Virus record (IMG/VR): IMGVR_UViG_3300028557_000015
Coordinates: 62,001-116,205 of that record
Source: an uncultured virus (IMG/VR IMGVR_UViG_3300028557_000015)
Taxonomy: Duplodnaviria > Heunggongvirae > Uroviricota > Caudoviricetes
Length of the DNA stretch: 54,205 nucleotides
Direction: 5' to 3' (one strand)
The notes under the pieces are model-generated. The model made no database searches, had not been told where the DNA came from, and saw only the letters and a list, made by a program, of their open reading frames with translations. The position numbers and the translations under genes are program-made. This document shows positions 14,601 to 50,787 of this stretch, one piece after another. Within the stretch, counting starts at the first letter, position 1. Each line of letters opens with the position of its first letter.

Positions 14601-17600
14601 ATATAAAGTAGTTAAATCAGATTTACGATAGACATAAACTAAATTCTGTTCATATGCAGAGATGTATAGCCAATTTTGGTCACCAGATAATGCGATTGAA
14701 GAACCCCAGTTGGTTACAGAATCGTCATCAGGTGATTCAATTACTTGTACTTCTTGCAATTCGTTAAGTAAATTGTTAATTACTAAATCGTAAATATAAA
14801 CTTTTCTGTCAGTATAGGCTGCACCAGTTGGTTGTGATATTACAAATAAATTATCTGAATATGCAATCGTAGAACCAAAAGATATACCCTCAGTAATTGT
14901 TTGAACAATACTATAAGAATCAAAAACCGAGCTATAAGAATAACGATATGCAACACCGGTCTCTGCGTCACTAATCAAATAACCTAAATTACTTGTTTGT
15001 GCAACTGCACTACCATATGTTAATGAATTAGTTTTTAATAATTCATCTTCATATACATAGTTTAAACTCTTACGATATACAGCCCAAGAGCCATCATCAT
15101 TTTCATCAACCCAAACTTTGTTCTTTACAAATTCACTGTCAAGTAAAGGCAAGTTATTAATATCACTTGGTGTAGCTACACGTTGAGATGAGAATTTCAT
15201 CGCAACACCTTCACCGGTGATTGTTGTCAATGCCGATGATAAACTTAATAGAATAGTTACTCTAAATGGATCTACTACTGTTGCAACAATTCTGTAACCA
15301 TCAATATTACTATTAAAATTAATAATAGCAAATGGTTGATATTTTGTTAAATTGTGCGGTGTTGCAAACTGTAGTGTGACAGTTCCATTTAAGTTATTGA
15401 TTGCACCCACTACTTGTCCGGCACTTGTTGGAGTATATACTTGCCAAGTGCTATTATAATCAGCTAACCATACGTATTCATTTACATATAAATGTGATAG
15501 AGGAGTTGTTGCAGTATTCAATCCATTATAATAGTACGATGAGATTTTAACATCATTAAAGTTAGTATAACCTGCATCCGGGAACACTCTATTTGGTGTA
15601 TCTGACGGTAATGTGGGTAATACATTTGGATTATTTATAGGTCTTCCATAATTAAAAACTGAATATAACGGTACTTCTTGTTCTACACCATCAGTATACA
15701 CACCGGTAGTAAGTCCAACAATAGATGGATTACCTGTTAATTGATTTTGATTTAATCTAAAATCAACAAAGTTATTGTTTAATACACCACCAAACTCGCC
15801 GGTCTTAATAGCCCAGTTTTCATACACATCATAATCAATACCACCTTGTGGTAAGTTTAATCCTTTAAAACTATTTGCCGCAATTCGTGTACCTTTTTCT
15901 TTGATAAGATTTTTATAAACATTAACCTGTGTTATGTCTGTCAAATCAGCTAATGCTAAGTAATCACGTGGTCTATATCCAATCAATGACCAACTTAGTA
16001 GGTCACTATCTTGGTCTAAATTAGTTTTGTTTGTATCATAAAACAATGTTGCTTCATATGAACGTGTTGAACTGTTAGGCAGTAACCCTTTCTGAATCTC
16101 ATTATAATCAGTTTCTTTCCAATACTGTTCTTCAAATATTTCCTTTGCATTTAATACTTTTAATGCAAACCAATATTTGTTTTTATACTTAACAATACTG
16201 CCTCTTGTATACTTTTGATTAGTACTCCATTCTTCAATATTATTTTGGTTAAGAATAAAGCCTTGTGCATCAATAGTACCATTCCAATCAGCAGACTTTG
16301 TGCCTCTGGTTAAGATACGATTTTGTCTTAAGCCAGTTACTAAATTATACAATACGTCATTGAACACAGTAACATTATCAAACACAATACCGTGTTCAAA
16401 GTTACTAATGTTAAACTGACCATACGCAACAGTATCACCTTCATTTAATGGTGTTGCACTAAAGAACGTACTATCACGTGTTACTGATAATTCATTACTT
16501 TGTATTGGGTAGAAGTTTTGATTTAAAATAAAGTTTTGTCTTTGTAGTGTTAGAGGTTGAACTATATGACTATCTTTATTAATAGTAATCAAATTAGCGG
16601 CTGGATTTAAGTTAATTAAACTTCCTGTTTCCCAACCACTCTGTGCCCAGTATAATAATTCCGTAACCATTTGACGCCAGTTAACATCTATACCAGATTC
16701 TATTTGGTCAAATAATACACCTTGTGTTAATAAATATCTTCCATAGTTAGCTATAAATTGACTTAGTGATTGTAAGTCAAGAAACTCAGTTCCGTATGGT
16801 ACAATATTAGTTTTGTTTTCAGTATAGTCATTTGCTAGTTGAACTGATATATTACCCACTGTAACTTTATTGTAGTTTCCATTAATCTTAGGAGTTACCG
16901 TAGTGAAGTATGCGGTATCTTGTGAGTTACCAAATACTTTCCAACCAGCGTTTGTGCTTTGCACAACAACGCCGCTATAAATTACAGTGGTTATAGGTAC
17001 ATTATCATACAATACTACACTATAACTTTCGTCTGGAATTAGTAATGATGCATTTCTACTGTTTGGTGTTCCCTTTTCAACATAGAAACCAAGCAAACTC
17101 TTATCACTAAATCCTGCCAATCTATAAATCAATCTTACATCTAAATTATCAAATAAGTCTGTAATATTTTGTGTGGCATTAATACCAACTTGCTTTTCAT
17201 AATCAACTATCCAGTTTATATAACTTGTTTTTGCCGTTCCATTACCATATATGGCAACATCACTAATCACTAAGTGACTGCGATTATTAACTAGATATTG
17301 ATTAAACTCCGTACTAAATTTGTAGTTGTCTACATCAAAACCCAAGTTAAAGAATTTTGCAGGTTTAGTAAGAGCAAGAATCTTCATTAAGTCGAAAGGC
17401 CAACTACTGCTTCTGCGGTATGAGAATTCAACTGGGCCTACATCTCCTACAGCCCATTCATTTCTAAATGTTCTGAAATTATAGTTACCCATCACTGCAT
17501 CAAACGGGGATAATAAATTACCTGCACCATCTACTGGTATTACACTTAATAATTCTTCTCTAATAAATTCAGGCAAGACAATTGGATCACCGTTATTCCA

Positions 17601-20600
17601 GTTGATGCCCGCAGCCATATCTCCCCATAATACCAAGTTATCACTTGTGTATGGTGCGGCGCCGTATCTATCAGTCCACCAAGTTGGTTGATTTGTAAAG
17701 CCAATCATTTCCCAAGGTGTGGTGTTTGGAGTACTTGTATCATAGAAGTACTCATATATACCTCTCCAGAATCCTTGTGGAATTGGTTGTCCATTAATTC
17801 TATTACCGGACTGGGTGTAATTATAACTAAACTGGTCATTGGGTTGATAAAATTGTTTCTTATATTCAATGCGATTCTGCCCAACCCAATTTAAGAAATA
17901 CTGACTGTATATTTGTAAGACTTCATCATATGAGTAGTTGGTTGTTCTAAAGAATCCCGGAATAACATCATATTCAGTAATAGGAACTATGTCTGTTAAT
18001 TTAAGATTATTATAAACACGTGATTCAAATTCCAATAGTGCTTGGTCTCTAAAGTCAACTAAATTTCCATCAATATATTCTCCATATAATTTAGTATATG
18101 AACCATCATGTCCTTGAATAAAATATGTAGGTTGAGAATAATTACTATCTAATACAACTCCGGGAATAAATGAGGGGTATAATCCTAATTTAGTAGGAGT
18201 GTTTGGTACATAACTTCCAAAAGTCTGATTGTATTCTTTAATTGTTACAATGTCTCCAGCAGATAAGTCTTTTGTAATAGTCAATGATGGAGTATCTGTA
18301 CTTACTGTATAATCCTGATTAACAATCAATTGTTGTGTTGATGTAAAGTTATCTACTGTTGTAGTCAAATAAACTAATACGCCATAATAATTTGCGGTAT
18401 CAAAATTATAAATTCTTGTTAAAGGGTAGATACTTGTATCTAATGAGTTAGCAAAAGTATATGTATTAGTAGCATATGCCGCTTTACTTGGCAACATATC
18501 ACTCCAGAAAAAAGGTTCTGATTCTGTTTTGTTTTGGGTAATTTGATCCAATGCATCATCTAAAATAGTTGCAGGAGTCTGATATATGTTATATTCAGTT
18601 CTATCTATAGTATAAACCAATAACGACCTAAAAGTAATATACTGCTGACTGTTATACTGCAAAGAATTAATAAGATTATTATTTTGTGACCTTAACAACG
18701 ATCCAGGTAATGCTAAACTTGCACTATTTTGAATAATCTTATTTCCCCAAGGCACAAGATTACCTAAGTCACGATAATTGTTTGAGCCAAAAACGTCGCC
18801 GGTTGTGTTTGGGTTGTTATAGAAAATACTTTGATATTGACCGCGAATGTCACCTACGTTAACAACAGATACATCATCATTGAACGGATTGTTTTGTAAG
18901 TTGATAGGTATTTGATAGTATGCAGTTGGACTTACCTGATCGCTTAATAATGTGATTTCAACTACTGTATCAATCAGTGGATTAGGTACAGTGAAATTTA
19001 CAACTGTAGTATTATCTGTAATGGTAAAAGTATAAGTTGATGTATCTTGTAATACGTTATTAACGTAAACTTGAATATTAGGCCATACTGTATTTGTTGA
19101 GGCAGCTATATCACAAGTATAGGTTGTAGTTGCTTCAGATGCAACATAGTTAAAAGAAAATATTTGATACTGACGACTTTCTGCAACAGCGGTTTGCCAT
19201 CCTAATTGTCTAACAACAGTTGTTCCAGATGTGTAATTATATACATAACCTGTATTAACTTTTTGTGTAATTGGATTAGTACCACTTACATAATTAAATG
19301 TTTCACTGTTTAATGGTACGTCAAAACTGATATCACCTACGTTATTAACTGCACTATAACGTAGTGGGAATCCTAGTACAATATCTTTAATTCCAGAACC
19401 AATTCCATAACTGAATAATTTATTGCCAGCAAATGATGTACCTACATATACATCGGTGTTGCCAAAACTAATGCCATCATTATCAAATATATCAAAGTAT
19501 GGTGCTTGATTAACTGTTGTTTTTTGTTGTGCTATTAACCATTCAATACCATCAAAGTAAAAATCTTTACCTTCATTATTATATCCCTTAAATGCAAAGG
19601 TGCATTCCAACGGTAATACTAATCCGTCACTTGCTTCAGTAAGAGTAATTACCGGCGTGCCTGTACCTTGTATATCAGAAAATCTTACAACATATATTTT
19701 GTTTCTAACATTTTCATTTGTATCGGCAGAAAAAACAATTCTTGCACCATCATATAATGAATAATTATCATTTGATAAATCATTTGCTACCAATGATGAA
19801 CCTGTAGTGGCAGGAATCGTTGTAGAAGTATCCCAAGTCACAGTAAGTGTTAAGGTTGACGTACCTGTAATAGTAGTAATTTGAGTATTTCTAGGTAAGA
19901 CATTTGTAGTATCACTTATGTATTGCCCAACCTGAAATGTGCCGGTAACATCTGATGCGGCAATAGTAATTGTCGTACTTGTTCCAGTAACACCTGCAAT
20001 AGTTGCAGTATAAGCAGTATATGTTTCAACGTCTGGCCAATAATTTTCTTGACCGGCTACAAGTGTAAATGCATCAGTTGTTCTATCATCAAAGAAATCA
20101 ATTGGATCTTTGCCAACGACACCATTATTAAATAACCTTAAATTAGGATAAAACTCAATGATTGGGCGTTTAGCTTTATTGTCCTGTGTTGCATATATTG
20201 TTGCAATCGCAGGATTATTATTATAGGTAGCAGTTGCATTGATAACATCAATGTGGAACCAACGGTTGCTTCTTGACCAAGCATTTTTATCTATACTGTT
20301 TCGTGCAATCGTAATATAATCTTGATACACAGGGATGTATAGTGTGCTATCATAGTTACCTATATCATATGGCAATGAATCAAATGGGGTGTATGCACCT
20401 TCAGTAAAAGGTTCCGGTGTAATAAGGTCTGCTACGTTTAATAATTCAATTGCTGTACCAACACCTTCTACATAATATTCACCATCTTTATAGCTTGTAG
20501 GAAAAATATCACCACTGAAACTTACTTTAAGACCATTAGTAAACACTACACCATTTGGACTTGTATATTGTTGTTGACCTAATATTTCAGTAATATCTAT

Positions 20601-21893
20601 TTGATTAGTTGAATTGCTTTCAATCAATCTAATGATACCAACCTTGTTAGCACTTGTGCCGTCTTGGTAATACAATGTATCTAATATAGCACTTAGATAT
20701 GGTACAAGATTAATAGATCCACTAGTGTTGCGGAAAAAGTTTCGTGCTTTCCATTCTGTGCCATAGTTTGCAGTAATCTTTTCATTTGTTGGAATGTTAC
20801 TTGCAGGAACTAATCTTAATACAGGATCAGATGGGTCACCTACATAAGTTATTGTGTAGAATGTAGCAGATACATCCGTATAAAAGCCACCTTCAAAATT
20901 ATTGAAATCAGCACTAGTGCCAGGTGGTGTGTAGCTCGCACCACCATCTTCATCAAATAATGTAGTATCATAAAACTTAGAAGTAAATCCTTGTTCATCA
21001 ACAACTCCGGTATTGTAAAACATAACAGTAAGACCTTCAAGTCCTGTCACGCCATCAATGTTGCCTACATCACTTAACAACTGACCATTGATTTGGTCGA
21101 ACGGTGTAGTAGACACAACGTCTACTAAATTATTACCCGGGAAGTTATATTCATCTTGTGCATTTTTATATGGTACTGTAAATATAACGACACCGGTAGT
21201 CGTGCCATTATTTTCAACACCCAATACATCACGTGTTTGTAAATTAAGTTGTTGTGGATCATATCCAGTAATACCCGGTTTACCTTGAATCCAAAATTCA
21301 GTAGGCTGATTTACAGTAAACGTATATGTGCCACCACGAATCAATGTTAATGTGGGATTGGTTGTGCCGGCTGGATTAACGTCACTCGATATATTATAAC
21401 CATTAGGTAGACTTCTAACTGTGTAGTCTGTGGCAGTATAAACAATATCTGTGGAAATATTAACAGATGGTGCACCTGTTGGCAACCAATAATATTGATT
21501 AAAGTTAATTATTTTATCTAAGTTAGTAAAGCTATCCCAAGAATAAAATTCACTGTTGAATAATCTATCATTGTTATCTGTTAATGCACCTTCTAATTTT
21601 AATGCATCTATGATACCGGGATAACTGATAAAATCTTTAGCAGTATTTGTATTTGTTTTGGTAAAAACAACTCCAGGATCTAATTGATAATCTCTGCGAA
21701 CTTTTGTAGGTTCTACTACGTAATTATCTTTAGCGTTAATACCATAACCAAATTTACTACCAATATAACCCTCAATCCTCATCGTATTGGGTTGGTCAAC
21801 GATTTGATCCAGTGTTGCCCCCAAGAATTGACTATTAGTAGGTGTTTGGAATATCTCTGGTAAAAAATTTAGTGTTCTAATTCGTGCTGCCAT
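2679..21893 (-). CDS. Giant (6404 aa) baseplate wedge/adhesin-like structural protein with FG-GAP-like and BNR-like propeller repeats and many beta-repeat modules
   Basis: Uninterrupted 19.2 kb ORF directly downstream of the gp6-like gene. Contains 'YLNEAKPYHVVIKDF', FG-GAP-like 'FGYS...IGAP...GAVY', BNR-like 'AVG..G.I.TS.DG.TW' and about 13 'GxPIxFxG..FGG...YYV' modules. Confidence 0.75.
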   Translation of the reverse strand: MAARIRTLNFLPEIFQTPTNSQFLGATLDQIVDQPNTMRIEGYIGSKFGYGINAKDNYVVEPTKVRRDYQLDPGVVFTKTNTNTAKDFISYPGIIDALKLEGALTDNNDRLFNSEFYSWDSFTNLDKIINFNQYYWLPTGAPSVNISTDIVYTATDYTVRSLPNGYNISSDVNPAGTTNPTLTLIRGGTYTFTVNQPTEFWIQGKPGITGYDPQQLNLQTRDVLGVENNGTTTGVVIFTVPYKNAQDEYNFPGNNLVDVVSTTPFDQINGQLLSDVGNIDGVTGLEGLTVMFYNTGVVDEQGFTSKFYDTTLFDEDGGASYTPPGTSADFNNFEGGFYTDVSATFYTITYVGDPSDPVLRLVPASNIPTNEKITANYGTEWKARNFFRNTSGSINLVPYLSAILDTLYYQDGTSANKVGIIRLIESNSTNQIDITEILGQQQYTSPNGVVFTNGLKVSFSGDIFPTSYKDGEYYVEGVGTAIELLNVADLITPEPFTEGAYTPFDSLPYDIGNYDSTLYIPVYQDYITIARNSIDKNAWSRSNRWFHIDVINATATYNNNPAIATIYATQDNKAKRPIIEFYPNLRLFNNGVVGKDPIDFFDDRTTDAFTLVAGQENYWPDVETYTAYTATIAGVTGTSTTITIAASDVTGTFQVGQYISDTTNVLPRNTQITTITGTSTLTLTVTWDTSTTIPATTGSSLVANDLSNDNYSLYDGARIVFSADTNENVRNKIYVVRFSDIQGTGTPVITLTEASDGLVLPLECTFAFKGYNNEGKDFYFDGIEWLIAQQKTTVNQAPYFDIFDNDGISFGNTDVYVGTSFAGNKLFSYGIGSGIKDIVLGFPLRYSAVNNVGDISFDVPLNSETFNYVSGTNPITQKVNTGYVYNYTSGTTVVRQLGWQTAVAESRQYQIFSFNYVASEATTTYTCDIAASTNTVWPNIQVYVNNVLQDTSTYTFTITDNTTVVNFTVPNPLIDTVVEITLLSDQVSPTAYYQIPINLQNNPFNDDVSVVNVGDIRGQYQSIFYNNPNTTGDVFGSNNYRDLGNLVPWGNKIIQNSASLALPGSLLRSQNNNLINSLQYNSQQYITFRSLLVYTIDRTEYNIYQTPATILDDALDQITQNKTESEPFFWSDMLPSKAAYATNTYTFANSLDTSIYPLTRIYNFDTANYYGVLVYLTTTVDNFTSTQQLIVNQDYTVSTDTPSLTITKDLSAGDIVTIKEYNQTFGSYVPNTPTKLGLYPSFIPGVVLDSNYSQPTYFIQGHDGSYTKLYGEYIDGNLVDFRDQALLEFESRVYNNLKLTDIVPITEYDVIPGFFRTTNYSYDEVLQIYSQYFLNWVGQNRIEYKKQFYQPNDQFSYNYTQSGNRINGQPIPQGFWRGIYEYFYDTSTPNTTPWEMIGFTNQPTWWTDRYGAAPYTSDNLVLWGDMAAGINWNNGDPIVLPEFIREELLSVIPVDGAGNLLSPFDAVMGNYNFRTFRNEWAVGDVGPVEFSYRRSSSWPFDLMKILALTKPAKFFNLGFDVDNYKFSTEFNQYLVNNRSHLVISDVAIYGNGTAKTSYINWIVDYEKQVGINATQNITDLFDNLDVRLIYRLAGFSDKSLLGFYVEKGTPNSRNASLLIPDESYSVVLYDNVPITTVIYSGVVVQSTNAGWKVFGNSQDTAYFTTVTPKINGNYNKVTVGNISVQLANDYTENKTNIVPYGTEFLDLQSLSQFIANYGRYLLTQGVLFDQIESGIDVNWRQMVTELLYWAQSGWETGSLINLNPAANLITINKDSHIVQPLTLQRQNFILNQNFYPIQSNELSVTRDSTFFSATPLNEGDTVAYGQFNISNFEHGIVFDNVTVFNDVLYNLVTGLRQNRILTRGTKSADWNGTIDAQGFILNQNNIEEWSTNQKYTRGSIVKYKNKYWFALKVLNAKEIFEEQYWKETDYNEIQKGLLPNSSTRSYEATLFYDTNKTNLDQDSDLLSWSLIGYRPRDYLALADLTDITQVNVYKNLIKEKGTRIAANSFKGLNLPQGGIDYDVYENWAIKTGEFGGVLNNNFVDFRLNQNQLTGNPSIVGLTTGVYTDGVEQEVPLYSVFNYGRPINNPNVLPTLPSDTPNRVFPDAGYTNFNDVKISSYYYNGLNTATTPLSHLYVNEYVWLADYNSTWQVYTPTSAGQVVGAINNLNGTVTLQFATPHNLTKYQPFAIINFNSNIDGYRIVATVVDPFRVTILLSLSSALTTITGEGVAMKFSSQRVATPSDINNLPLLDSEFVKNKVWVDENDDGSWAVYRKSLNYVYEDELLKTNSLTYGSAVAQTSNLGYLISDAETGVAYRYSYSSVFDSYSIVQTITEGISFGSTIAYSDNLFVISQPTGAAYTDRKVYIYDLVINNLLNELQEVQVIESPDDDSVTNWGSSIALSGDQNWLYISAYEQNLVYVYRKSDLTTLYELSDTITVAGLSAGDSFGYSIATNYYGNIVAVSAPENDTVVADLGTAYSFERLVQTFEAPFTSSPFAPQTFSLIFTPITTPVTVTDTNAGTDRFTCTDSSVLTVGYPIVFTGTVFGGVSLNTVYYVLAKPSGTTFTVSTERGGSTLQLITDTGSMSAVQQTEPIFVSVNGTLIDDNEYGVVGTNINVYQSLTAGDIITVSGSEFVLTQEFTSVDANPEVGTNFGYSLDVDTYANELLIGAPFEINSQNAEGAVYRYTYGGSSYGIVTGTTECNVTAATTILVNGYAVNIPAGNATAAANAITSANITNVTASASNNILTIQVISVDLAFINAKLTVSVLDADVLDQLGIQLYTQTQLINDPHSQGRTQFGSTIKFNSSGSFVVSAPASARYAETTFDASDDENYDNDTLFDNNTTQFIDSFVNAGAVYMYDYLPVYNENVNNSGAYVYAQSVNALNEDYGSQPYYGTALDFNNNSVIIGTPNFRPGYDNGQVVIYNNSSGESDWIVYRNSAPIVDTDAIQNVQLYSVSTNNTLDNLDYIDPLQGKLLGAVRENLDIVSNTDPANYNSPDATNKGSTVWGPGQLGKLWFDTSTTRFVNYHQSDDVVYNSKWWGRVFPGSDVKVYSWVTSDVEPIVYQGPGTPRSIDDYAIEYRLNSTGALVPVYYYWVRNTNIVFNQIGKTLSDTICESYIATPLSTGISYMAAIQPNVFGLYNCGSNINATDTALHIGFATGTNDDVSHSVYSLIRSNYADDFLPGLPGIGDTVVPESLYNRMLESFSGVNQTGAVVPDPFLPKPVQSGILVRPRQSFFYNRFKALENYLQFYNTVLAQYPLAETSSLKFLFTEGAINPSTVDNPNWPGAPELFYNTQDYWELINWWAPGYNDNTKSAMLVESYYDLAPINAQLGLIVTVNKNGDGLQETYVYDGIEWVRIGLQNGTIQFSSSLWDYAEARIGFGDNFFDTTPFDTFPSEETRSIIRAVNEELPSNLLLFRNKSLILMFNYIVSETIESQNYLPWLNKTSFIDVAHTIRELLPLEVFQSDNQEFLAGYLNEAKPYHVVIKDFLFKYTGTNVYEGEITDFDLPAQYNTQFQQYITPELVYANPSSINQYLPTDPIWQTQPYINWFNNQGLSITGVNDYPITLLLSYLTLNSISMVVDNVYGFPTTGVILIGEEEIAYSSVDRAYSTLSGLTRGVNGTTITNHLPGEQIIIDLPPVLLLNGGRGYAEPPKVTAYIDTTIYPAPRRAAILQPVMNLDTILRIDVIDPGEGYQVLPEIRIDPSEIVTFASTDVDVLTNTITLQTQFVQTGDLIQYYVGTDTTAVGGLDDGQYYYLAVLENTPFYVVALYTSYANALQDHDRVVLTNTGTGSNNNIAVSARASCVSTSLPTRENIITLRFDRTTYDSQVTEWAPDNFYGSFYAGLFNNSTRIASSAITLEQTQPPVNDILASAQGATFEIQDITNDQVLTWSSFIRQVGETVAANDAVRLTYDSTQPNASGSTIGFYVGMPVKFVGAVGPVITNNTTYYVAEVINESDFSISTTVSGSVLPLTDYTVTAAGLSCYAGEVTNTAIVTIAYPGILDVTATELTTNFITTPTLPTGTAGTSGFYVGLPVYFVGNVFGGIIENETYYIITVIDSETFTISTTNDPLILTATNTTVTTNLVTVGSTLELSVNDPIIFTGTMFGGLVAGQIYYVASIYNGTQITLSSTINGPVTTLSTATGSCTLTSQTTAVQLTTATGSMTMNVGLPVSPGQVTGQLFTFYPTVASVGTGVSGTNGNLVTRDTVAATSNGDYLYLRYLSGGLTNIYNNLPFVLSESIGGLTAGDTYYVVSNGALAVEVASSSSSTNEYTLASGTLTTGFYIGMPISFSGAVFGNVVALVTYFINSYDLGGDTFTITDTIGGSDLVLTTDNGQMTLTADNPYITLTDTLGDPAIGLTDEILETVFTQDPISSPTFNVGKKLGGYTIDIVNPGSGYTFDNTITISGTDLGGTSPLNDLVLTVSGIDVIVANTNPNYDFLLPVESDGNVTSVIGSGTPAGIVRQYYLKVISATQCEVYANPLLNVPVNGLVLETEYTLGDYVFLPEPFYFNQSIVKYNNQVWQCIISNNDNEFIIGKWELLNSGSRKLNELDRIIGYYDPTVNMPGVDLTQLIEGITYPNSTYLDNAFAPEDQYTLDTILQDQPFYPTSVDTVAISWNGTTYVAAANTPEYSASLLSVDASSWAINKLVNIPVNASDIIYANGLFVIVCESATTPIYTSTDGIVFTTAGGAFTPYDATPYSINNYDSTLLSVESTSLSSVAYGNAIWIAVGENIVLSTDTFSWAQVDTFTNGLVNNLNSVTYVNIPSYVGFISVGNGQEIISGSTQGTSVIKISSDGYVWTTLPIVSYKGFNGVTSSSSMIVAVGEDGVIYTSLNGTNWFGLNESNIISVNASTNVINVGSTTGFQVGNTVRFTQSFNVISSGTTYYVVDVTSSTQLKVSTTSGGSPITLNATNPPSTTFMYIYPTGPTLNDVLYANSLFMAVGNTGTIKTSSDGYTWTIKTSGTTKDLNGITYNSIDGEWIVVGDDNAIITSTNNGNTWISSSVFETAPTVYDVQGDAFTAGYGPEELVPGVVSDNLTMIVTTRPGTDWDTSIYGHAGYNVVSTEIVPDSGQTEFSFEGVVENPANISLFDITTATNTSIRIYDFTVDWVNKVVTIGTALAVDHTLRLDVYEVGNGNQLVKANSQTIPFVDNISTGFVEMPLNCNYSADRFNGSGVIRPNTDPKSVNAIETDAIDNGIVCESVDYFAVNAPITFQGAVFGGIVSGTTYWIKTISYITNKITISASVSGGIAGPTFDVTSATGIMLVNIQSTNGLVWTDPILIHNGTNLVLGEQGIVSETNSGTNTIVVNSTDHYEVGDTIVFSDAIDTGSFVSSGLIAQQQYYITSIVGNEFTVSLTSSGTNVTLANATGIALCVTNDYAIAIADEGITAKIVFANQYTQANDFVVLSVFGETAPVQYGYTVPEVELFELTTAVTEFTLSNYVGGDNAKNAIVEHNGRRLVETSDYTIDFNTETLSLNFGTSAGDTVAVTSYNLTDRQYLHTTYGGTFSGSTTNSFFIGSTTHTPGYDANITAGQFLVGSEYVITKVGTTDFTLIGSTQINAGSFVIGTSYTIDGLGTTDFTLIGATQVAAGSFVIGNVYIINSIGTTDFTLIGASSNTIGLEFVATGVGTGTGTALNNIFVATGIGSGTGTSLESLFTASGAGTGTGTAAIGFDGGVITTAGSFTIGATYEILTVGTTNFTLIGSVDNNVGTMFTATGVGTGTGTAGTGLYSPGPDYLTLSSGNTNSLNINDAITFTGTTFGGIVANQTYYVVNIISSTEFAVSETPGGSAIQLTTDFGSMIGITNPPTVAPISGVDNLITAPITVGITSTTITTNVVTCSSTIGFSPGQPIMFKRSNPATPYGNILCDGTVYFIKTVVNGFDFTISETPSGPVMVQVTTSGAILAEVSGNPAVSITTGVPHNLAENDIVRIDGTLGSVQLNNNTYYAKIISATQIALYNSAYDPTANAINDPVTIVSTWTGGGYVWLDKTFTITTTLATATTASNDRITVSSSLELILGTPIIFTGSDLLGGLESEVTAGSFTEGNTYQINSQGTTDFTLIGALNNNVGTNFVATGVGTGTGTATAIYYVYDKPSATTFRVTAVRDGDVFALTNDTGSMNVSQWEQGNVDRLWVTINGYRIPSSALRLNPDNNLSILSTVEPGDVVIITSMIPTATPNQAVYLQNVNKTGVPSVYRANSLTRTWLTETLQDTDDTIYVEDVTMITETIIQNETAPAEIDGIISIGLEGDKQAICQVIVYNNDTTQTVDPADYYIAVEATAPILKITGGVSGGELLTITVILGNLIYVNGEQIGFTTVNFDTNTVTGLQRGANGTGEQTFIPKYSEVYGILSSNKLPTVYNALTWNSYNYNLVDGDPLQISTTFSANFLNADVP

Positions 21894-38330: not shown

Positions 38331-38361
38331 TTTATACAGTAATGTTATGATAAGTAATAGT

Positions 38362-38925
38362 ATGCCAAGTCCACAAAAAGCAAAAGGTTCAGGTTTTGAA
38401 CGAGAAATTGCTAAATATCTTTCAGAGAAGTACAGTGAATCATTCATTCGTGCTCCCGGCTCAGGTGCTTATATTGGTGGAAAGAATCAATCAAGAACTC
38501 AAATACTACATGAAGGTCAGATTAGAAGTTTTAAAGGGGATATAGTTCCTGGACAGACTTTTACTAAGATGAACGTAGAGTGTAAGTTCTATGCTGATTT
38601 TCCGTTTCATCTATTACTTTCAGGGGAATGCAAAGTAATAGATGGTTGGCTAGAACAACTCATGGATGTAGCTGATCCGGACGATTGTAACATTCTTTTT
38701 ATGAAGTTCAATCGTAAAGGTCGTTATATTGCTGTACAAAGCAAACTAACATGGGTTACTGACAATTTCTTGTATTATACAAGTCCTAAATTAGGAGATT
38801 GGATAATTATGGAATTTGACAGCTTCTTCTTAAACAACAGTACATTATTAAAAGCATATTCAGGCTCAACAGACACCACGTCAAATCAAACTGTTACAAA
38901 AAACATCCTCACAATAGAAAATTAA
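38362..38925 (+). CDS. Holliday junction resolvase-like PD-(D/E)xK nuclease
   Basis: 'KGSGFEREIA...GDI...VECKFY'. ATG 38362 is 5 nt after a TAAGTA box. Confidence 0.7.
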   Translation: MPSPQKAKGSGFEREIAKYLSEKYSESFIRAPGSGAYIGGKNQSRTQILHEGQIRSFKGDIVPGQTFTKMNVECKFYADFPFHLLLSGECKVIDGWLEQLMDVADPDDCNILFMKFNRKGRYIAVQSKLTWVTDNFLYYTSPKLGDWIIMEFDSFFLNNSTLLKAYSGSTDTTSNQTVTKNILTIEN

Positions 38926-38940
38926 TTAAAATAAAAATGT

Positions 38941-39300
38941 GTCGTCCTGGTTGCAGGACCTCCTTGAGTTTGTACAGATTGTGCTGTGCTGACGGATCTG
39001 GAGTAAGCGTGTATAGCGATATATACGGAATACCGAGAAGGCAATCGACAAAGCGAACCTTCAACAAGTCTATGACAACTTTATTTCTGCGTCATAGAAT
39101 GTGCGTTGCTGGATGAAACACAGAGTGTGCGTAAATTCAACTACAGTCCCATAAACTTTACAGAGCAACCGGTAGCATTTAATAGCATCAAATAGCTAAT
39201 TAAGTGGGGAAGAAATAACAACGGATGACGGGCGTGCAAACAACCTTTACTATTGGTAGTGCTGAATAGCACTACCATGGCTTCAAAGCGGCAATATAGT
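38941..39300 (+). ncRNA. Candidate large structured non-coding RNA (family not recognised)
   Basis: ORF-free and GC-richer than its flanks, with at least 8 stems including a GCGA GNRA tetraloop, G-U pairs on the + strand and long-range pairings (see findings). Confidence 0.55.
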
Positions 39301-39344
39301 CCTTATTAGATTAACAGTAAAATAGAATAGATAACCGTAAAATA

Positions 39345-39387
39345 TAAGAACGAACGAAGTGAGTTCTTAGATGAACGAAGTTCATCT
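39345..39387 (+). other. Pair of C-GAA-G triloop hairpins (candidate ssDNA signal)
   Basis: TAAGAAC-GA-AC-GAA-GT-GA-GTTCTTA and AGATGAAC-GAA-GTTCATCT. Confidence 0.6.
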
Positions 39388-39433
39388 TTACAAGAGATGA
39401 CCCGATGTGATAAATGAACAGTTACGGGTTTGA

Positions 39434-39670
39434 TTAGAAGAATGGCATCTGTGATTTCTTAGTGACTTCCAGATTACTATCAATAATTTTCTTAATTTCA
39501 TCTCTTTCATCAGAGGACATGTTTAATATATCTTCATATGTTACACCACCTCTCATGTACCAACTCATACTAAGAGCATTTTTCTTAATAGCGGCACACT
39601 CAAGTTCCATATCATCTATCAGCTTCTTTACACCCTCGTGGTCAAGGTGTAGAAGCTTTATCCGAAAAAA
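39434..39670 (-). CDS. gp51-like frame, probably expressed as a -1 frameshift extension of the gp26-like gene (or from ATG 39610, 58 aa)
   Basis: FFRIKLLHLDHEGVKKLIDDMELECAAIKKNALSMSWYMRGGVTYEDILNMSSDERDEIKKIIDSNLEVTKKSQMPFF*. Missing from the ORF track. Confidence 0.7.
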   Translation of the reverse strand, partial: FFRIKLLHLDHEGVKKLIDDMELECAAIKKNALSMSWYMRGGVTYEDILNMSSDERDEIKKIIDSNLEVTKKSQMPFF

Positions 39671-40488
39671 TCAGATGTGTTCAGTGTAAATTGTTGACTA
39701 TATTCATTTTGGCAATGTATACATTTAATTTTTAATGGTTTAATTTCAGTCTGTGCCTTTAATTCAGCATTATAGTCTCTGATAGAAACATATGTATCTC
39801 TATCACAATTCTTTAAAAAATCTAAAATATATTCACGTTCTTCTACATATGCGCTAGGAGTTCTTATATGAGTAATAGTCTGTGATAGTATTCTCATAGT
39901 TACATCAGTAATAAATTTTAGTGCCTCTTGAGTTCTACTTGCACGTATTGCCTCATTTTCTTCTTTTTCTAATGTTAGAAAAATACGTTGTGCTTCAAGT
40001 TGAGTAGTTCCAGCTTCATTCATTTCTTTGTAAGTCAATGGTCTAAACTTAATAGATAAGTCATTTATAGTTAATTCTTTTTCATAATCGGCTGCTTTAA
40101 GCTGACTTAGTATACCTACTAGATTTACAGCGTAGTCAGCTATTTCTTTACAACTTGGGCATTCAGATGAAATAGACATATCGTTTCCACCTGCCGCTGA
40201 ACGAATAGCAATCAACACAGCATCTAAGTCAATACTATTAATAGCCCAAGGATCTTTAATATCCGGTATACAACTTTTAATAATATCAGCCATAGCAGTA
40301 CCGTTATACAACGCATCCGGTGTTTTTGCACTAATCTCGTCAATTGCTGTCATGGGATATACAGGTAATTCACCAGACTCTGGAATAGTTACTACACCTG
40401 GTGGATACAACTTACCACCGCTAGGTAGTTTCAAATAAATTGAAGGTCTACGGAAATATTGCTTTAATGGGTTGTTTTGGATAGTCAT
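39658..40488 (-). CDS. Baseplate hub assembly protein/tail chaperone, T4 gp26-like
   Basis: 'NPLKQYFRRP.IYLKLPS.G', 'PMTA.DE', 'D.DA.LIAIR.A' and two CxxC pairs (CPSC, CIHC); ends ...DFFG. AAGGA RBS. Confidence 0.8.
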   Translation of the reverse strand: MTIQNNPLKQYFRRPSIYLKLPSGGKLYPPGVVTIPESGELPVYPMTAIDEISAKTPDALYNGTAMADIIKSCIPDIKDPWAINSIDLDAVLIAIRSAAGGNDMSISSECPSCKEIADYAVNLVGILSQLKAADYEKELTINDLSIKFRPLTYKEMNEAGTTQLEAQRIFLTLEKEENEAIRASRTQEALKFITDVTMRILSQTITHIRTPSAYVEEREYILDFLKNCDRDTYVSIRDYNAELKAQTEIKPLKIKCIHCQNEYSQQFTLNTSDFFG

Positions 40489-40558: not shown

Positions 40559-43288
40559 ATGGCAGAAAATTTAGATCCGGAATCGATTAGACAATTCAAT
40601 GAATCAATGCGTGAGTTGAATAATGTCATGCCGGCACTTATTACCGGTTTAGGACAATTAACAGGAGTTGCATCAGGTTCTACTAAAGTTCAAGACGCAC
40701 TAAACAAACACGCTAATGCTGTTAAAGGCATGACTGAGTTAGAACAATCTTATATTAACGCACAGAAGAAAAAAGCCGCCGCCGACGCTAACAGGGCTAC
40801 CGCTGATGCCTCGGCTGTATCAGCACTAAAAGATTTTACTAGTGCGATGATGAATACATCCACTGAGTTTGGTAAGTTCAACGGGGCATTAGGTAATGCA
40901 GGTGATGCCGCATTAGCTTTAGGTAAAAACTTTGGCGCAGTTGGATTAATCATTGGTGGATTAATTAAAGGTGCAACCAAAGTAGCACAATTAGCTACAG
41001 TTCAAGCAGATAACGCCCTTAAGGTAACTGATGAATTTAACAAGATGGGTTCTGCTGGAGCCTTCACTGCTAAACAAATAGCAGAGATGAGCATCAGTAT
41101 TGGCTTGAGTAATGAACAGTGGAATTTACTACCAAAAGCATTACGTAAAGCCGGCGATGGAATTGTTGGTTTGGGAACTACAACTGCTAAAGGACAAGAA
41201 TCTTTTGCTAAGTTATTAGCTGTAACAAACAGCGAACGTGAAGCATTTCAGAGATTAGGTATAAGTCAAGAAGAATTAATGGGTAAGCAAGCTGAATACA
41301 TTGCCTTGCAAGGTATGTCAGGTAAGTCACTAGTTACTCAAGCAAAAGATGCAGATAAATTACGTAAATCATCATTAGAATATACTGAAAACTTATTACG
41401 ATTAAGTGCATTAACGGGCAAAGATGCTGATAAAATTGCAAAGGATCAGCAACTTGCTAAGATGCAATATGAAGAAGTTGTCAGAACTAGAGTTGAAGAT
41501 GACAAGATTCGTCAATTAACACAAGAAGGTAGACTAGCAGAGGCTCAGGCATTAAAAGATGAGCAAAAAGCTAGGGAACAGTTTATCACAGATGCAACAG
41601 CACGATTTGGTGAAGAGACAGGTTTACAATTAGCAAAAGTAGCACGAACCGGTGCATACGATGAATCTACTAAAGGAATTGCACAATTAGGTATAGATGC
41701 AACTGAACTTGCGGCTAAACTTAAGAAAGCAAAACCAGGAGAAGAGGTTGCTGATTTATTCAATAACACTGCGGAAACTGTAAAAACAAAAGTAACTGAA
41801 AAATTAGGTAACTTTGAAACTAGTTTACAGTTTGGTGGAGAAGAATTAGGAAAAACATTAGGTCTAAACAAAGAACTAATATTAAATACAGGTCGTGTTG
41901 TTGAGAGAAACGAAAAAGAAGCTGAAGCTGCCGCTAAAAGAGGGATAGCTAAACCAAGTGAAGGTAAGACAGGTGAAACCACTGCAGAAGATCCTGCACA
42001 AAAAGCTAGAAACGCAGTAACAACTACAACTATTGAGTTTAACAAAGCATTAGAGAGAGGATTAGTTGCAGTCAATCCTTTATTGTCTGGATTTAATAGT
42101 TTAACAACAGCGGTAACTGCATTAACCGTAGCCGCATTAGCTGCCGCAGCCGCATTAGCAGCCATTGGCGCTAAAGGTGCAATAGGAAAAGTATTAGGTA
42201 CATCTACTATGCCTGATAGTGACGGTGGTAAAGGTAAAGGTAAACCGAGTGTTCTTAAAAGACTTGGTGGAGGTGTAGCAGGTGCGGTAGCTGGATACAC
42301 ACTTGGTAAAGGTGCAGAATATGCTAATGAAAAAGGTTACGAGAAAACAGGTACGGCACTAGACGTAGCAAGTTCGGCAGCAACTGGTGCGGGTATGGGA
42401 GCCATGCTAGGACCTGTTGGAGCCGCAGTAGGCGGATTAGTAGGCACCGGTGTGGGTATATATCAAAATAGAGAAAAAATATTTAGTAGTAGTTCTGCGC
42501 CAGCGGCAACTCCAGTAGCAATGGGTAATGAAGGTAATAGAGGAGCAAAACCAACGCCACAACCACCGGAAGGTTCTGAAGATAAAACTGCGTCAGCAAA
42601 AGCAGTCGATCTAGGTAAAATACTAAAGTTTGGAACTGGCTCCGGAAGTAAAGAGAATTTTGAAGGATTAGATTCTACTTTTAAAGATGCAGTAATTGCA
42701 GCCGCTACTGAATATAATGCGGTTACTGGCAATATGATAATGATTAATAGTGCAAAAAGAGCATCAGAGGATCAGCAAAGACTATATGACGAAACAGTAG
42801 CAGCCGGCAGACCTGGACGAGGCCCTACTGGAATGGCTGTAGGTAAACCCGGCCGTAGTCTTCACGAAAAAGGTCAAGCAGTTGATATTCAAAACTATAA
42901 AGATCCAATTGCTGTTGCCGCATTTAATAAACAAGGGTTATCACAAAAAGTTCCAGGTGACCCGGTTCACTTTCAAGCTAGAAACGGAGCTATGGTTAGT
43001 GGGCCGTCTTCTGGATACCCAGTAGAAGCGACATTTCATGGACCTGAAATAGTAGCACCGTTGGATCCTGACTCTATCCTTACTAAGTTATCTAAAACTT
43101 CAGTGTCAGATATGGCAAAAGAATTTAATACATCTACTAATAATTCAACTACAGAAAATATAATTTCTTCAAATGCTGAAATGATTGAGTTGATGAAAAT
43201 GTTCGTAGAAAAAATGGATAACTTCATTGATGCCCAATCCGATAGCAATAGCATACAAAGTGAATTATTACAGTATTCAAAAGCTTAA
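40559..43288 (+). CDS. Tape-measure-like protein with glycine-zipper segments and C-terminal M15-family peptidoglycan peptidase
   Basis: Long helical Ala/Lys/Glu-rich region and GxxxG stretches, then the Zn-peptidase motif 'NSAKR...Q..LY...S.HEKGQAVDI...DPVHF' (SxHxxGxAxD...H). Confidence 0.65.
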   Translation: MAENLDPESIRQFNESMRELNNVMPALITGLGQLTGVASGSTKVQDALNKHANAVKGMTELEQSYINAQKKKAAADANRATADASAVSALKDFTSAMMNTSTEFGKFNGALGNAGDAALALGKNFGAVGLIIGGLIKGATKVAQLATVQADNALKVTDEFNKMGSAGAFTAKQIAEMSISIGLSNEQWNLLPKALRKAGDGIVGLGTTTAKGQESFAKLLAVTNSEREAFQRLGISQEELMGKQAEYIALQGMSGKSLVTQAKDADKLRKSSLEYTENLLRLSALTGKDADKIAKDQQLAKMQYEEVVRTRVEDDKIRQLTQEGRLAEAQALKDEQKAREQFITDATARFGEETGLQLAKVARTGAYDESTKGIAQLGIDATELAAKLKKAKPGEEVADLFNNTAETVKTKVTEKLGNFETSLQFGGEELGKTLGLNKELILNTGRVVERNEKEAEAAAKRGIAKPSEGKTGETTAEDPAQKARNAVTTTTIEFNKALERGLVAVNPLLSGFNSLTTAVTALTVAALAAAAALAAIGAKGAIGKVLGTSTMPDSDGGKGKGKPSVLKRLGGGVAGAVAGYTLGKGAEYANEKGYEKTGTALDVASSAATGAGMGAMLGPVGAAVGGLVGTGVGIYQNREKIFSSSSAPAATPVAMGNEGNRGAKPTPQPPEGSEDKTASAKAVDLGKILKFGTGSGSKENFEGLDSTFKDAVIAAATEYNAVTGNMIMINSAKRASEDQQRLYDETVAAGRPGRGPTGMAVGKPGRSLHEKGQAVDIQNYKDPIAVAAFNKQGLSQKVPGDPVHFQARNGAMVSGPSSGYPVEATFHGPEIVAPLDPDSILTKLSKTSVSDMAKEFNTSTNNSTTENIISSNAEMIELMKMFVEKMDNFIDAQSDSNSIQSELLQYSKA

Positions 43289-45106: not shown

Positions 45107-45676
45107 TTAGATAAGTTTCCAACCACCGCAGTGTTTATATTTACCGCTGAATACTTTACTTAGATTACCTAAATTTAAATTATATTTTTTTGCTAAATTA
45201 TATCTAGTAGAGAATTCAAGTTGATTAGTTTGTATATTTTCAAATTTATATATAGTTGGATCATATCTAGAATTTTTTGGTCCTCTTTTGTCACATTCTT
45301 TGTTATGATGATTAGTTAAATCATAACCATTCTTTTTAGTATAATGATTTTGTCCACTAACCTTTTCCTTCATATTACTTGATTGTGTTGTCCCGGTTCT
45401 AGTAGCCCCGCCGCTACCCTCTTCAGGTCTCATGTTAGCCCAATTTGGGTCATCAACTACATTCCATAAATTACTGTAATACAAACCCCAATATTTTACT
45501 TCATCATTAGTTTGACATTCTTTAATGATTTCAGTAGTGACATCATACCCATGTTTTTTGATATGTGAAACCCAATAGTCACCTGATCCTTTATATTTGA
45601 ATGGATCTTTTGTTGTTTTGCCTAAATACTGTAACTCGGTTATGTTGTGAGTTTTCTTATATAGATAAATATTCAT
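45107..45676 (-). CDS. Free-standing GIY-YIG (Seg-like) homing endonuclease
   Basis: 'IYLYKKTH...YLGKT...Y.GSG' N-terminus and C-terminal HTH-like 'LAKKYNLNLGNLSKV..GKYKHCGGW'. Inserted antisense within the head operon; ATG 45676 preferred. Confidence 0.75.
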   Translation of the reverse strand: MNIYLYKKTHNITELQYLGKTTKDPFKYKGSGDYWVSHIKKHGYDVTTEIIKECQTNDEVKYWGLYYSNLWNVVDDPNWANMRPEEGSGGATRTGTTQSSNMKEKVSGQNHYTKKNGYDLTNHHNKECDKRGPKNSRYDPTIYKFENIQTNQLEFSTRYNLAKKYNLNLGNLSKVFSGKYKHCGGWKLI

Positions 45677-45777
45677 ACTGATTGCTCTTTTAAGCATTAG
45701 AGTAGTTGGGCCTGCCAGCCGCGAACTACACTTTTATTTATTCATTTCGGTGATAAATACATTATAGGAAATACCAA

Positions 45778-49998: not shown

Positions 49999-50787
49999 AT
50001 GTCAAGTATTGGCATAAATACTATTATGTTCACAAATAAATTCTATTCCAAAGTATACTTCTCAACTATTGAGAAAGCAGTTCAACGAGGCTGGAAAAAA
50101 GCCCGAGGTAGAGAACGGCATCATATTATTCCTCAATCATTAGGAGGAAGTAATGATAAAAGTAATCTAGTATATTTGTCTTGTAGAGAACATTTTCTTT
50201 GTCATTGGCTATTAGTAAAAATGACTGAGGGTGAATACTATCATAAGATGGTGTATGCTCTAATGGGGATGAGGGCAGAAAATGAACACCAAGAAAGATA
50301 TCAAACTATTTTTACTGCAAGAGTTTATGAAAAATATAGAATAGAACACGCGGAGTATCATTCTAAACTAATGAAGTCTAAGAACCTTGTTCCTTGGAAT
50401 AAAGGTGGAGTAGAGATAACAGATGAACATAGAGAAAATCTAAGAAATGCCGCATTACAAAGAGCACCTAAGTCAGAAGAAACAATTACAAAATGGAAAG
50501 AAAGTAGAGCAGGTTATACACATAGTGAAGAAACTAGACAAAAACAAAGTTTAGCTTCAACGGGAAAACCTAAAGGTCCTATGAGTGAAGAAGAAAAGAT
50601 TAAACGGTCAGTAAAACAAAAAGGTGTAGCAAAAGTTAAAACACACGGAGCTAATGTAGCCAACGCAGTATTAGGCAACATAAGTATCAACAAAGACAAT
50701 ACCGAGAAGAAAGTAAAGAAAGACACACTACACAGTTACTTAGATGATGGTTGGCAACTTGGTGGCAAAAAGCGTAAGATAGCATAA
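49999..50787 (+). CDS. Free-standing HNH homing endonuclease with NUMOD3-like repeats (start 49999 or 50026)
   Basis: 'ERHHIIPQSLGGSNDKSNLVYLSCREHFLCHWLL' and 'HSEETRQKQS'-type motifs. Confidence 0.85.
   Translation: MSSIGINTIMFTNKFYSKVYFSTIEKAVQRGWKKARGRERHHIIPQSLGGSNDKSNLVYLSCREHFLCHWLLVKMTEGEYYHKMVYALMGMRAENEHQERYQTIFTARVYEKYRIEHAEYHSKLMKSKNLVPWNKGGVEITDEHRENLRNAALQRAPKSEETITKWKESRAGYTHSEETRQKQSLASTGKPKGPMSEEEKIKRSVKQKGVAKVKTHGANVANAVLGNISINKDNTEKKVKKDTLHSYLDDGWQLGGKKRKIA

What the first reader, a model, noticed from the sequence alone, without database searches (positions are those of the whole stretch)
38941..39300. Unannotated ~360-nt densely structured element: candidate large phage ncRNA
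Seen: this is the only long ORF-free stretch in the window, at the convergence of two operons, and it is packed with stems. Local stems: GTCCTG/CAGGAC (38944-59); CAGAT/ATCTG (38975-39000); CGTGTATA-GCGA-TATATACG (39008-27, GNRA loop, G-U pair); GAAGG/CCTTC (39037-62); TCTATGAC/GTCATAGA (39069-98); GTTGCT/AGCAAC (39105-169); CATTTAATAGC/GCTAATTAAGTG (39176-206); TGGTAGTGCT-GAAT-AGCACTACCA (39254-77). Long-range pairs: TACCG (39031-35) with CGGTA (39170-74) closes a multibranch domain; GTCGTCC-tg-GTTG (38941-53) with CAAC-GGATGAC (39219-29) competes with the first hairpin, like a switch; GAGTTTGT (38966-73) with ATAAACTT (39151-58) would form a pseudoknot. The G-U pairs and the GNRA loop work on the + strand. 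Inference: a folded RNA (replication primer RNA, ribozyme or RNP scaffold) of no family I recognise.
Basis: partly seen in the sequence, partly recalled or inferred. Interest (0 to 1): 0.82.

Follow-up and report, generated by a model that had tools for sequence, protein, structure and literature searches.

The report
Knotted jumbo-phage RNA, possible replication primer
The gene-free gap holds a real, roughly 360-base knotted non-coding RNA of uncultured giant phages, related to the uncatalogued core of the orphan Polynucleobacter-1 RNA, and because it is almost always followed by DNA-type hairpins it may help start DNA replication, which is untested.

Summary
Real structured RNA, + strand, about 38935-39296. 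Rfam has no match. This copy's folding energy is unremarkable (z -1.5), but in 45 homologues 92% of helix cells pair and 71 of 112 pairs change on both sides. Its switch and pseudoknot do not. Two other pseudoknots do: 39081-88/39211-18 and 39147-50/39207-10. A model of the central domain finds the core of sister-lineage RNAs (best E 4e-7), some carrying Rfam's Polynucleobacter-1 motif upstream. A similar core with the same knots occurs 4-5 times per genome in cultured Rak2-like phages and beside integrases in bacterial islands; that link is not statistically shown. Strand-specific GNA-loop hairpins follow the core in 77/77, 58/64 and 14/14 phage copies and 1/4 islands, against about 1% background. 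Best guess (0.4, inferred): a folded primer RNA plus single-stranded-DNA signal, like ColE1 or T4 origins. No partner, ends or activity are shown. The scan noted this RNA, its hairpins and the origin idea before, on other DNA.

The parts
38347..38925 (+). RusA-like / PD-(D/E)XK Holliday junction resolvase; last gene of the gp55-gp47-gp46-radical SAM operon; neighbour, not a proven partner
   Evidence: phrog_244 E 2.5e-19; PF24608; the invariant CCTCCTTGA lies 24-53 nt after its stop in 76 of 76 complete gaps
38935..39296 (+). Structured non-coding RNA, about 360 nt; ends inferred from conservation and from the 5'/3' pairing 38937-43/39290-95
   Evidence: the closing helix has one-sided changes only (0 of 6 pairs change on both sides)
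38944..39027 (+). 5' domain: three hairpins (38944-59; 38960-39003 with an invariant CUCC-UU-GA/UC-U-GGAG helix; 39008-27 with a GNRA loop)
   Evidence: loop exactly GNRA in 29 of 45
39031..39219 (+). Central domain: 39031-35/39170-74 closes 39037-62, 39064-39102 and 39105-10/39164-69; hairpin 39176-206; contains the shared core CGUUNN...A(C/U)(A/C)GNNNAACC
   Evidence: model R1 hits sister-lineage cores
39081..39218 (+). Pseudoknot PK2: loop 39081-88 pairs with 39211-18
   Evidence: three pairs covary at E 0.03-0.17 against a tree-based null; 7 of 8 pairs change on both sides, the outer two pair poorly
39147..39210 (+). Pseudoknot PK1: 39147-50 pairs with 39207-10, directly before the PK2 3' strand
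   Evidence: 4 of 4 pairs change on both sides, 94.5% of cells paired; weak in the global test (E 2.5)
39223..39295 (+). 3' domain: 39223-29/39279-84 helix, near-invariant hairpin 39254-77, unexplained G/G-U/U covariation of 39232 with 39288
   Evidence: GG 29, UU 11, GC 5 of 45
39297..39347 (.). A+T-rich spacer of poorly conserved sequence (78% A+T; window 64%); candidate unwinding element
39346..39368 (+). Hairpin with tandem G.A mismatches and a C-GAA-G triloop
39369..39387 (+). 8-bp hairpin with a C-GAA-G triloop; the only such hairpin with a stem of 6 or more pairs in the 116-kb contig
39434..39610 (-). 58-aa gp51-like ORF, convergent end of the gap
   Evidence: no PHROG match
39658..40488 (-). 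gp26-like baseplate hub gene; syntenic anchor to cultured Rak2-like phages
   Evidence: phrog_150

Best explanation
The gap is one module: a folded RNA, an A+T-rich spacer and single-strand DNA-type hairpins on the RNA-like strand. Shown: the RNA's fold with two pseudoknots, its conservation, and the tight coupling to the hairpins. Inferred: the RNA is made as the 3' end of the gp55-gp47-gp46-resolvase transcript (other lineages give it its own sigma70-like promoter). It folds while being made, so that its 3' part stays paired to the template across the A+T-rich spacer (an R-loop). An RNase H-type cut or the natural 3' end primes the leading strand, and the displaced + strand folds into the GNA hairpins where helicase or primase loads. 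It would work like ColE1 RNA II and the T4 oriF/oriG transcripts without being a member of either.
For: (1) Hairpins follow the core on the same strand in 77 of 77 window-lineage, 58 of 64 sister-lineage and 14 of 14 enterobacterial-phage copies; background 0.6-1.1% of 270-nt windows in three genomes. (2) Their loops are GNA triloops in 150 of 170 window-lineage cases and GNRA in 3, while the loop inside the RNA is GNRA. That C-GNA-G triloops are unusually stable in DNA is recalled, not tested. (3) Serratia phage BF has five copies (30, 93, 175, 259, 335 kb), Munch five and SP27 four, all on one strand and 52-111 kb apart; T4 has at least five early origins, and oriF/oriG are a promoter plus an A+T-rich unwinding element whose transcript forms an R-loop (PMC3016281, passages). 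(4) A complete copy sits in a 10.7-kb E. coli island bounded by a 20-bp repeat at ffs and similar cores sit beside tyrosine recombinases in four other islands; no Rep or primase family was found among the island ORFs scanned. (5) The neighbouring nuclease changes (RusA-like, GIY-YIG, endonuclease VII) and is not adjacent to the extra copies inspected, while the hairpins stay. (6) Rep-free origins that encode a 465-nt RNA exist in MRB plasmids (PMC3035462, parts 2-4 of 6).
Against: No direct test of replication. Skew follows the coding strand and cannot locate an origin. No plasmid match in four searches of 72,556 plasmids. Only 1 of 4 usable island copies passed the hairpin detector. T4 R-loop origins need no special sequence, so an ornate RNA is not required for that job. 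In the sister lineage 29 of 96 hairpin loops are GNRA and 35 of 64 also score on the opposite strand, so the hairpins could be an RNA tail or terminator. The link to the enterobacterial copies and islands rests on motif, topology and synteny; model searches did not confirm it. The window lineage has one copy per genome (5 of 5). Several island ORFs have no family, and the Colwellia island has a UvrD helicase beside an OLD-type nuclease, so a hidden replication gene is not excluded. No antisense control RNA or G-tract was identified in the window lineage.
Confidence: 0.4

Rival explanations
1. A stable trans-acting RNA (protein scaffold, decoy or RNA-only assembly, as proposed for GOLLD/ROOL/OLE); the downstream hairpins end or protect the transcript.
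For: Closed 5'/3' ends, invariant unpaired motifs, two or three pseudoknots and a non-canonical covariation. Own promoter-like sites in enterobacterial copies. Islands carry defence-like cargo.
Against: Evenly spread, same-strand copies each with their own hairpins fit a cis role better. In four metatranscriptomes only one had contigs across the RNA, and nothing pointed to unusual abundance (contigs cannot rank expression). None of the four published PA5oct ncRNA regions matched the core pattern or model R1.
Confidence: 0.27
2. A ribozyme: the invariant multi-pseudoknot core cuts or joins RNA, for example releasing itself from the operon transcript.
For: A small invariant core held by nested knots across lineages; short duplicated motifs near the 3' end suggest strand exchange.
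Against: No match to any Rfam ribozyme, RNase P or intron model; by eye the helix order fits neither group I introns nor RNase P (comparison from memory); no joints seen across the element (shallow and cut).
Confidence: 0.12
3. A cis element of the mRNA: a 3' stabiliser or terminator between convergent operons.
For: It begins within about 30 nt of the resolvase stop, and one RNA-library contig bridges that stop (38692-39005).
Against: Other lineages place it behind its own promoter-like site with unrelated upstream genes; no terminator-like site was found.
Confidence: 0.1
4. A guide or scaffold RNA for the adjacent resolvase-like nuclease.
For: In the window lineage 43 of 44 strong pattern hits have the resolvase in the same locus (the other locus is 438 nt long).
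Against: The neighbour is GIY-YIG or endonuclease VII in other lineages and not adjacent to extra copies; no variable spacer-like segment was seen.
Confidence: 0.04

Closest known systems
Polynucleobacter-1 RNA motif (Rfam RF01718; Weinberg et al. 2010, PMC2864571: table row and supplement hits seen)
   Same: Same slot, before the convergent gp51/gp26 genes. RF01718 lies about 100-250 nt upstream of a core that the window-lineage model recognises; L533 has both.
   Different: RF01718 covers only 141 nt of 5' domain; the window's 5' domain does not match it. The pseudoknotted core is outside the Rfam model. No function is known.
ColE1 RNA II (recalled) and MRB plasmid RNA II (PMC3035462)
   Same: A several-hundred-nt RNA in a locus with no recognised Rep gene; analogy of function only.
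   Different: No sequence match in plasmids; no antisense RNA I identified; pB1067 was not in the collection, so no direct comparison was made.
T4 origins oriF/oriG (PMC3016281, passages)
   Same: Transcript followed by an A+T-rich stretch; several per genome; T4-like gene context.
   Different: T4's minimal origins are about 100 bp and sequence-independent; no conserved folded RNA is described in the passages read.
GOLLD, ROOL, OLE large ornate RNAs (PMC12286853, search listing only)
   Same: Large, knotted, partly phage-borne orphan RNAs.
   Different: No Rfam match; smaller; no tRNA in the window; no sign of extreme abundance (weak).

Membership tests
RF01718 Polynucleobacter-1 | Score at or above gathering (37 bits) to the model | tested here: not met
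   No hit at gathering or at E up to 10
RF01718-bearing full-length RNA (uncatalogued) | Homologous central domain downstream of the motif | tested here: met
   R1 over 36 loci: 5 hits at E 3.6e-7 to 3.5e-4 and 3 more at E 0.04-0.06, all on the core. The loci were picked by a core pattern that overlaps part of R1. The reverse, sequence-only model missed the window.
Rak2-like multi-copy RNA (uncatalogued) | Shared core motif, adjacent PK1/PK2 strands, same slot, downstream hairpins | tested here: inconclusive
   One pattern drawn from both lineages finds 1 site each in G000, G001, G002 and the 5 BF copies; PK1 76 of 76, PK2 97 of 98, PK3 80 of 80 cells paired in 16 copies; no significant model hit
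ColE1/MRB RNA-primed replicons | Sequence or structure homology to RNA II / RNA I | tested here: not met
   No Rfam RNAI hit; no plasmid match for four relatives; the window RNA itself was not searched against plasmids
ColE1/MRB RNA-primed replicons | Locus supports replication; RNA forms a persistent hybrid and primes DNA | not testable with these tools
   Needs bench work; skew uninformative
T4-type origin | Transcript followed by an A+T-rich unwinding element | tested here: inconclusive
   Spacer 78% A+T over 51 nt; no promoter above chance (4 found, 5.4 expected)
GOLLD / ROOL / OLE | Match to the Rfam models | tested here: not met
tmRNA / tRNA | ARAGORN or Rfam match | tested here: not met
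RNase P RNA, group I/II introns, small ribozymes | Rfam match to the catalytic core | tested here: not met
Any ribozyme | Catalysis in vitro | not testable with these tools
   bench assay needed

The most novel reading that the evidence does not exclude
One widespread RNA superfamily (window lineage, Polynucleobacter-1 lineage, Rak2-like phages, integrase islands) is the replication-origin primer of this group of jumbo phages: a multi-pseudoknot RNA coupled to single-stranded-DNA hairpins, which small bacterial islands carry so as to be copied by the phage's machinery. That would be a third, unrelated kind of RNA-based replicon and the first in tailed phages that I know of.
Probability: 0.25. 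Interest if true: 0.88.

Novelty: new variant of a known kind. Interest (0 to 1): 0.66.

Why it matters
How Rak2-like jumbo phages start replication was not found in the searches made. A conserved RNA-plus-hairpin module gives named coordinates to test, and probable relatives lie in cultured phages that grow on E. coli K-12. It would also give the orphan Polynucleobacter-1 motif of 2010 a full length and a context. If the origin idea fails, it remains a large, knotted, uncatalogued RNA with a well-supported fold, suited to structure work.

Tried and rejected
Rfam on the window: nothing at gathering; four chance hits at E 2.3-8.7. blastn of the gap against cultured phages: no match. Window HMM and model R1 on loci of SCTP-2, PA5oct, Phosso, Atu_ph07, RsoM2USA, BF, Munch, SP27: no significant hit (R1 did not cover SCTP-2 or RaK2). 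R1 on 15 enterobacterial copies, 7 islands and 8 other loci: none below E 1. Sequence-only model R2 missed the window and hit BF at E 0.54. One pattern search in five genomes found nothing because its gap was too short. The adjacency test for PK1/PK2 did not separate from its null in the window lineage (83% against 72%), but did in the sister (85% against 33%) and enterobacterial (100% against 41%) lineages. Skew followed coding strand. RNA runs were contigs only: parts without cover and relative depth prove nothing, and DNA in the libraries is not excluded; runs with a small share were not used. The 59-aa ORF 38937-39116 was rejected: its start codon is missing and the frame is broken by indels in homologues. 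A third pseudoknot like the one in other lineages is at most 2 pairs in the window lineage (39156-57/39174-75) and competes with 39031/39174. Of 34 genome-collection hits, 4 were phage contigs, 7 were judged real by eye and 23 chance. Fremin et al. 2023 (PMC10690425) list candidates of at most 151 nt; their alignment files could not be searched, so a fragment of this RNA may be among them.

Full report
Setting. The window is part of a 116-kb contig of a T4-like jumbo phage: late sigma factor, resolvase, baseplate hub, portal, protease and major capsid genes were identified with PHROGs. Close relatives have near-complete genomes of 333-367 kb. The nearest cultured phages are the Rak2-like group (PA5oct, Atu_ph07, BF, PBECO4, RaK2), at about 25-31% identity for the hub protein in the 60 of 94 records listed. 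The finding lies in the 508-nt gap between the resolvase (+) and a 58-aa ORF (-), the longest gap in the window.

Is it real? This copy's folding energy is not remarkable (z -1.52), so the case rests on comparison. The resolvase fetched 80 of 193 confirmed IMG/VR loci; 76 held the whole gap, and all 80 matched a profile built from 61 distinct gaps of this set, two of them cut short. A DNA pattern gave 120 more loci, 44 of them strong matches, 43 with the resolvase in the locus. In 70 sequences, 16 column pairs exceeded the highest score of 40 tree-based simulations; 14 are helix pairs and 2 are neighbours of such pairs. On 45 sequences the full structure has 91.9% of cells paired (79.0% shuffled, 34-42% slid) and 71 of 112 pairs with changes on both sides. 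The structure was drawn from this set, so the slid control flatters it.

What the fold is. Three 5' hairpins; a central junction closed by 39031-35/39170-74; a hairpin 39176-206; and a 3' domain with a near-invariant hairpin. Two pseudoknots end side by side: 39147-50 with 39207-10, and the loop 39081-88 with 39211-18. The pairing of the two ends shows only one-sided changes, so the ends are inferred. Positions 39232 and 39288 change together as G/G or U/U, which I cannot explain by standard pairing.

Expression. Of 19 runs listed, four RNA runs from four studies were laid, all as contigs. One holds near-identical contigs 38692-39005 and 38976-39278, the first bridging the resolvase stop; the pieces listed for the others lie in the resolvase or elsewhere (the table is cut). 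This shows presence in an RNA library, not strand, ends or level.

Relatives. Rfam has nothing for the window. In a sister lineage the same slot carries RF01718 Polynucleobacter-1 (2 of 9, 6 of 20 and 3 of 20 loci), followed by a core that Rfam does not cover. A pattern for that core gave 120 loci, 108 with the paired core. The window-lineage covariance model found it in 8 of 36 loci at E 0.06 or better, best 3.6e-7, aligning two hairpins that were not in the pattern; L533 has both this hit and RF01718. The reverse, sequence-only model failed. In BF, Munch and SP27 the same slot holds an element of about 500 nt with the words CGTTGC and ACAGAGCAACC as in the window; 73 phage records match it, most at 4-5 places, on one strand and 52-111 kb apart. 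In 16 such copies the knots are strongly kept, with a third one. No model search linked these to the window, so that homology is likely, not shown. RaK2's slot is empty but it has copies elsewhere. PA5oct, Phosso and RsoM2USA have long gaps and similar hairpins there by eye, with no model hit. Seven loci of bacterial genome assemblies, not next to phage hub genes, carry a similar core; four of the five inspected have a tyrosine recombinase beside it. Two of 5,426 E. coli genomes hold a copy, one in a 10.7-kb island at ffs.

The module. Behind the RNA lie 51 nt at 78% A+T, a hairpin with tandem G.A mismatches and an 8-bp hairpin with a GAA loop, unique in the contig. Such hairpins follow the core in 77 of 77, 58 of 64 and 14 of 14 phage copies and 1 of 4 island copies, against about 1% background; loci with under 330 nt of flank and duplicates were dropped. 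Their loops are mostly GNA triloops, unlike the GNRA loop inside the RNA. The neighbouring nuclease is exchangeable.

How it may work. The arrangement resembles T4 oriF/oriG, where a transcript forms an R-loop in an A+T-rich stretch and the displaced strand receives the primosome (PMC3016281, passages), and Rep-free plasmid origins that encode a long RNA (PMC3035462, parts 2-4 of 6; ColE1 details recalled). Dispersed same-strand copies, and islands with no recognised Rep or primase family, fit. Against it: no replication data, uninformative skew, no plasmid matches, weak hairpin evidence in islands, and T4 needing no folded RNA. I put it at 0.4, a trans-acting RNA at 0.27, a ribozyme at 0.12, an mRNA element at 0.10 and a nuclease guide at 0.04.

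Novelty. Ten literature searches found no description of the full RNA; 'Polynucleobacter-1' occurs in one paper of the library. The library lacks most subscription journals, and the alignment supplements of Fremin et al. 2023 could not be read. The four ncRNA regions reported for PA5oct (PMC7318152, passages) do not match the core pattern. The scan has noted this RNA, the Rak2-like copies and the origin idea on other DNA; those notes are not independent support. Verdict: a real, uncatalogued variant of an orphan large RNA, with a testable origin hypothesis; interest 0.66.

Noticed in passing
window 39404-39428: A conserved ATAAATGA...TTACGG motif lies between the hairpins and the end of the 58-aa ORF in most homologues; it resembles the ATAAATA words before late genes but its role is unknown.
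   Followed up: no
window 39434-40488 (-): gp26-like gene followed by a 58-aa ORF; earlier scan notes propose a -1 frameshift joining them. Not checked here.
   Followed up: no
window 2679-21893 (-): A 6,404-aa ORF in the structural region.
   Followed up: no
window 45107-45697 (-) and 49999-50787 (+): Two free-standing homing-endonuclease-like genes, one after the portal and one after the major capsid gene.
   Followed up: no
window 40559-43288 (+): 909-aa tape-measure-like protein with a C-terminal endolysin-like domain.
   Followed up: no
L030, L067, L078: About 550-600 nt of extra sequence lies between the hairpins and the 58-aa ORF; in L078 it looks like an endonuclease gene.
   Followed up: no
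L127, L160 (hairpin equivalent to 39008-27): Insertions of 40-50 nt in this hairpin are tolerated.
   Followed up: no
L652:9839-20517 (E. coli EEC_W5): Island at ffs with an IS3-interrupted integrase, the RNA module and a DuOB-DUF488-DUF4326/mSLOG operon, possibly defence.
   Followed up: partly
L656:5738-9762 (Colwellia assembly): OLD-type nuclease plus UvrD helicase (Gabija-like, label recalled) beside the recombinase and the RNA core.
   Followed up: partly
L203:1103-2504 (Sinorhizobium phage Phosso): A 1-kb gene-free, hairpin-rich gap lies between an RNase HI gene and the resolvase; no model hit.
   Followed up: partly
L207:3495-4500; L209:3485-4100: An unrelated ORF (L207) or a run of AGGCTAA-type repeats (L209) separates the resolvase from the RNA.
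   Followed up: no
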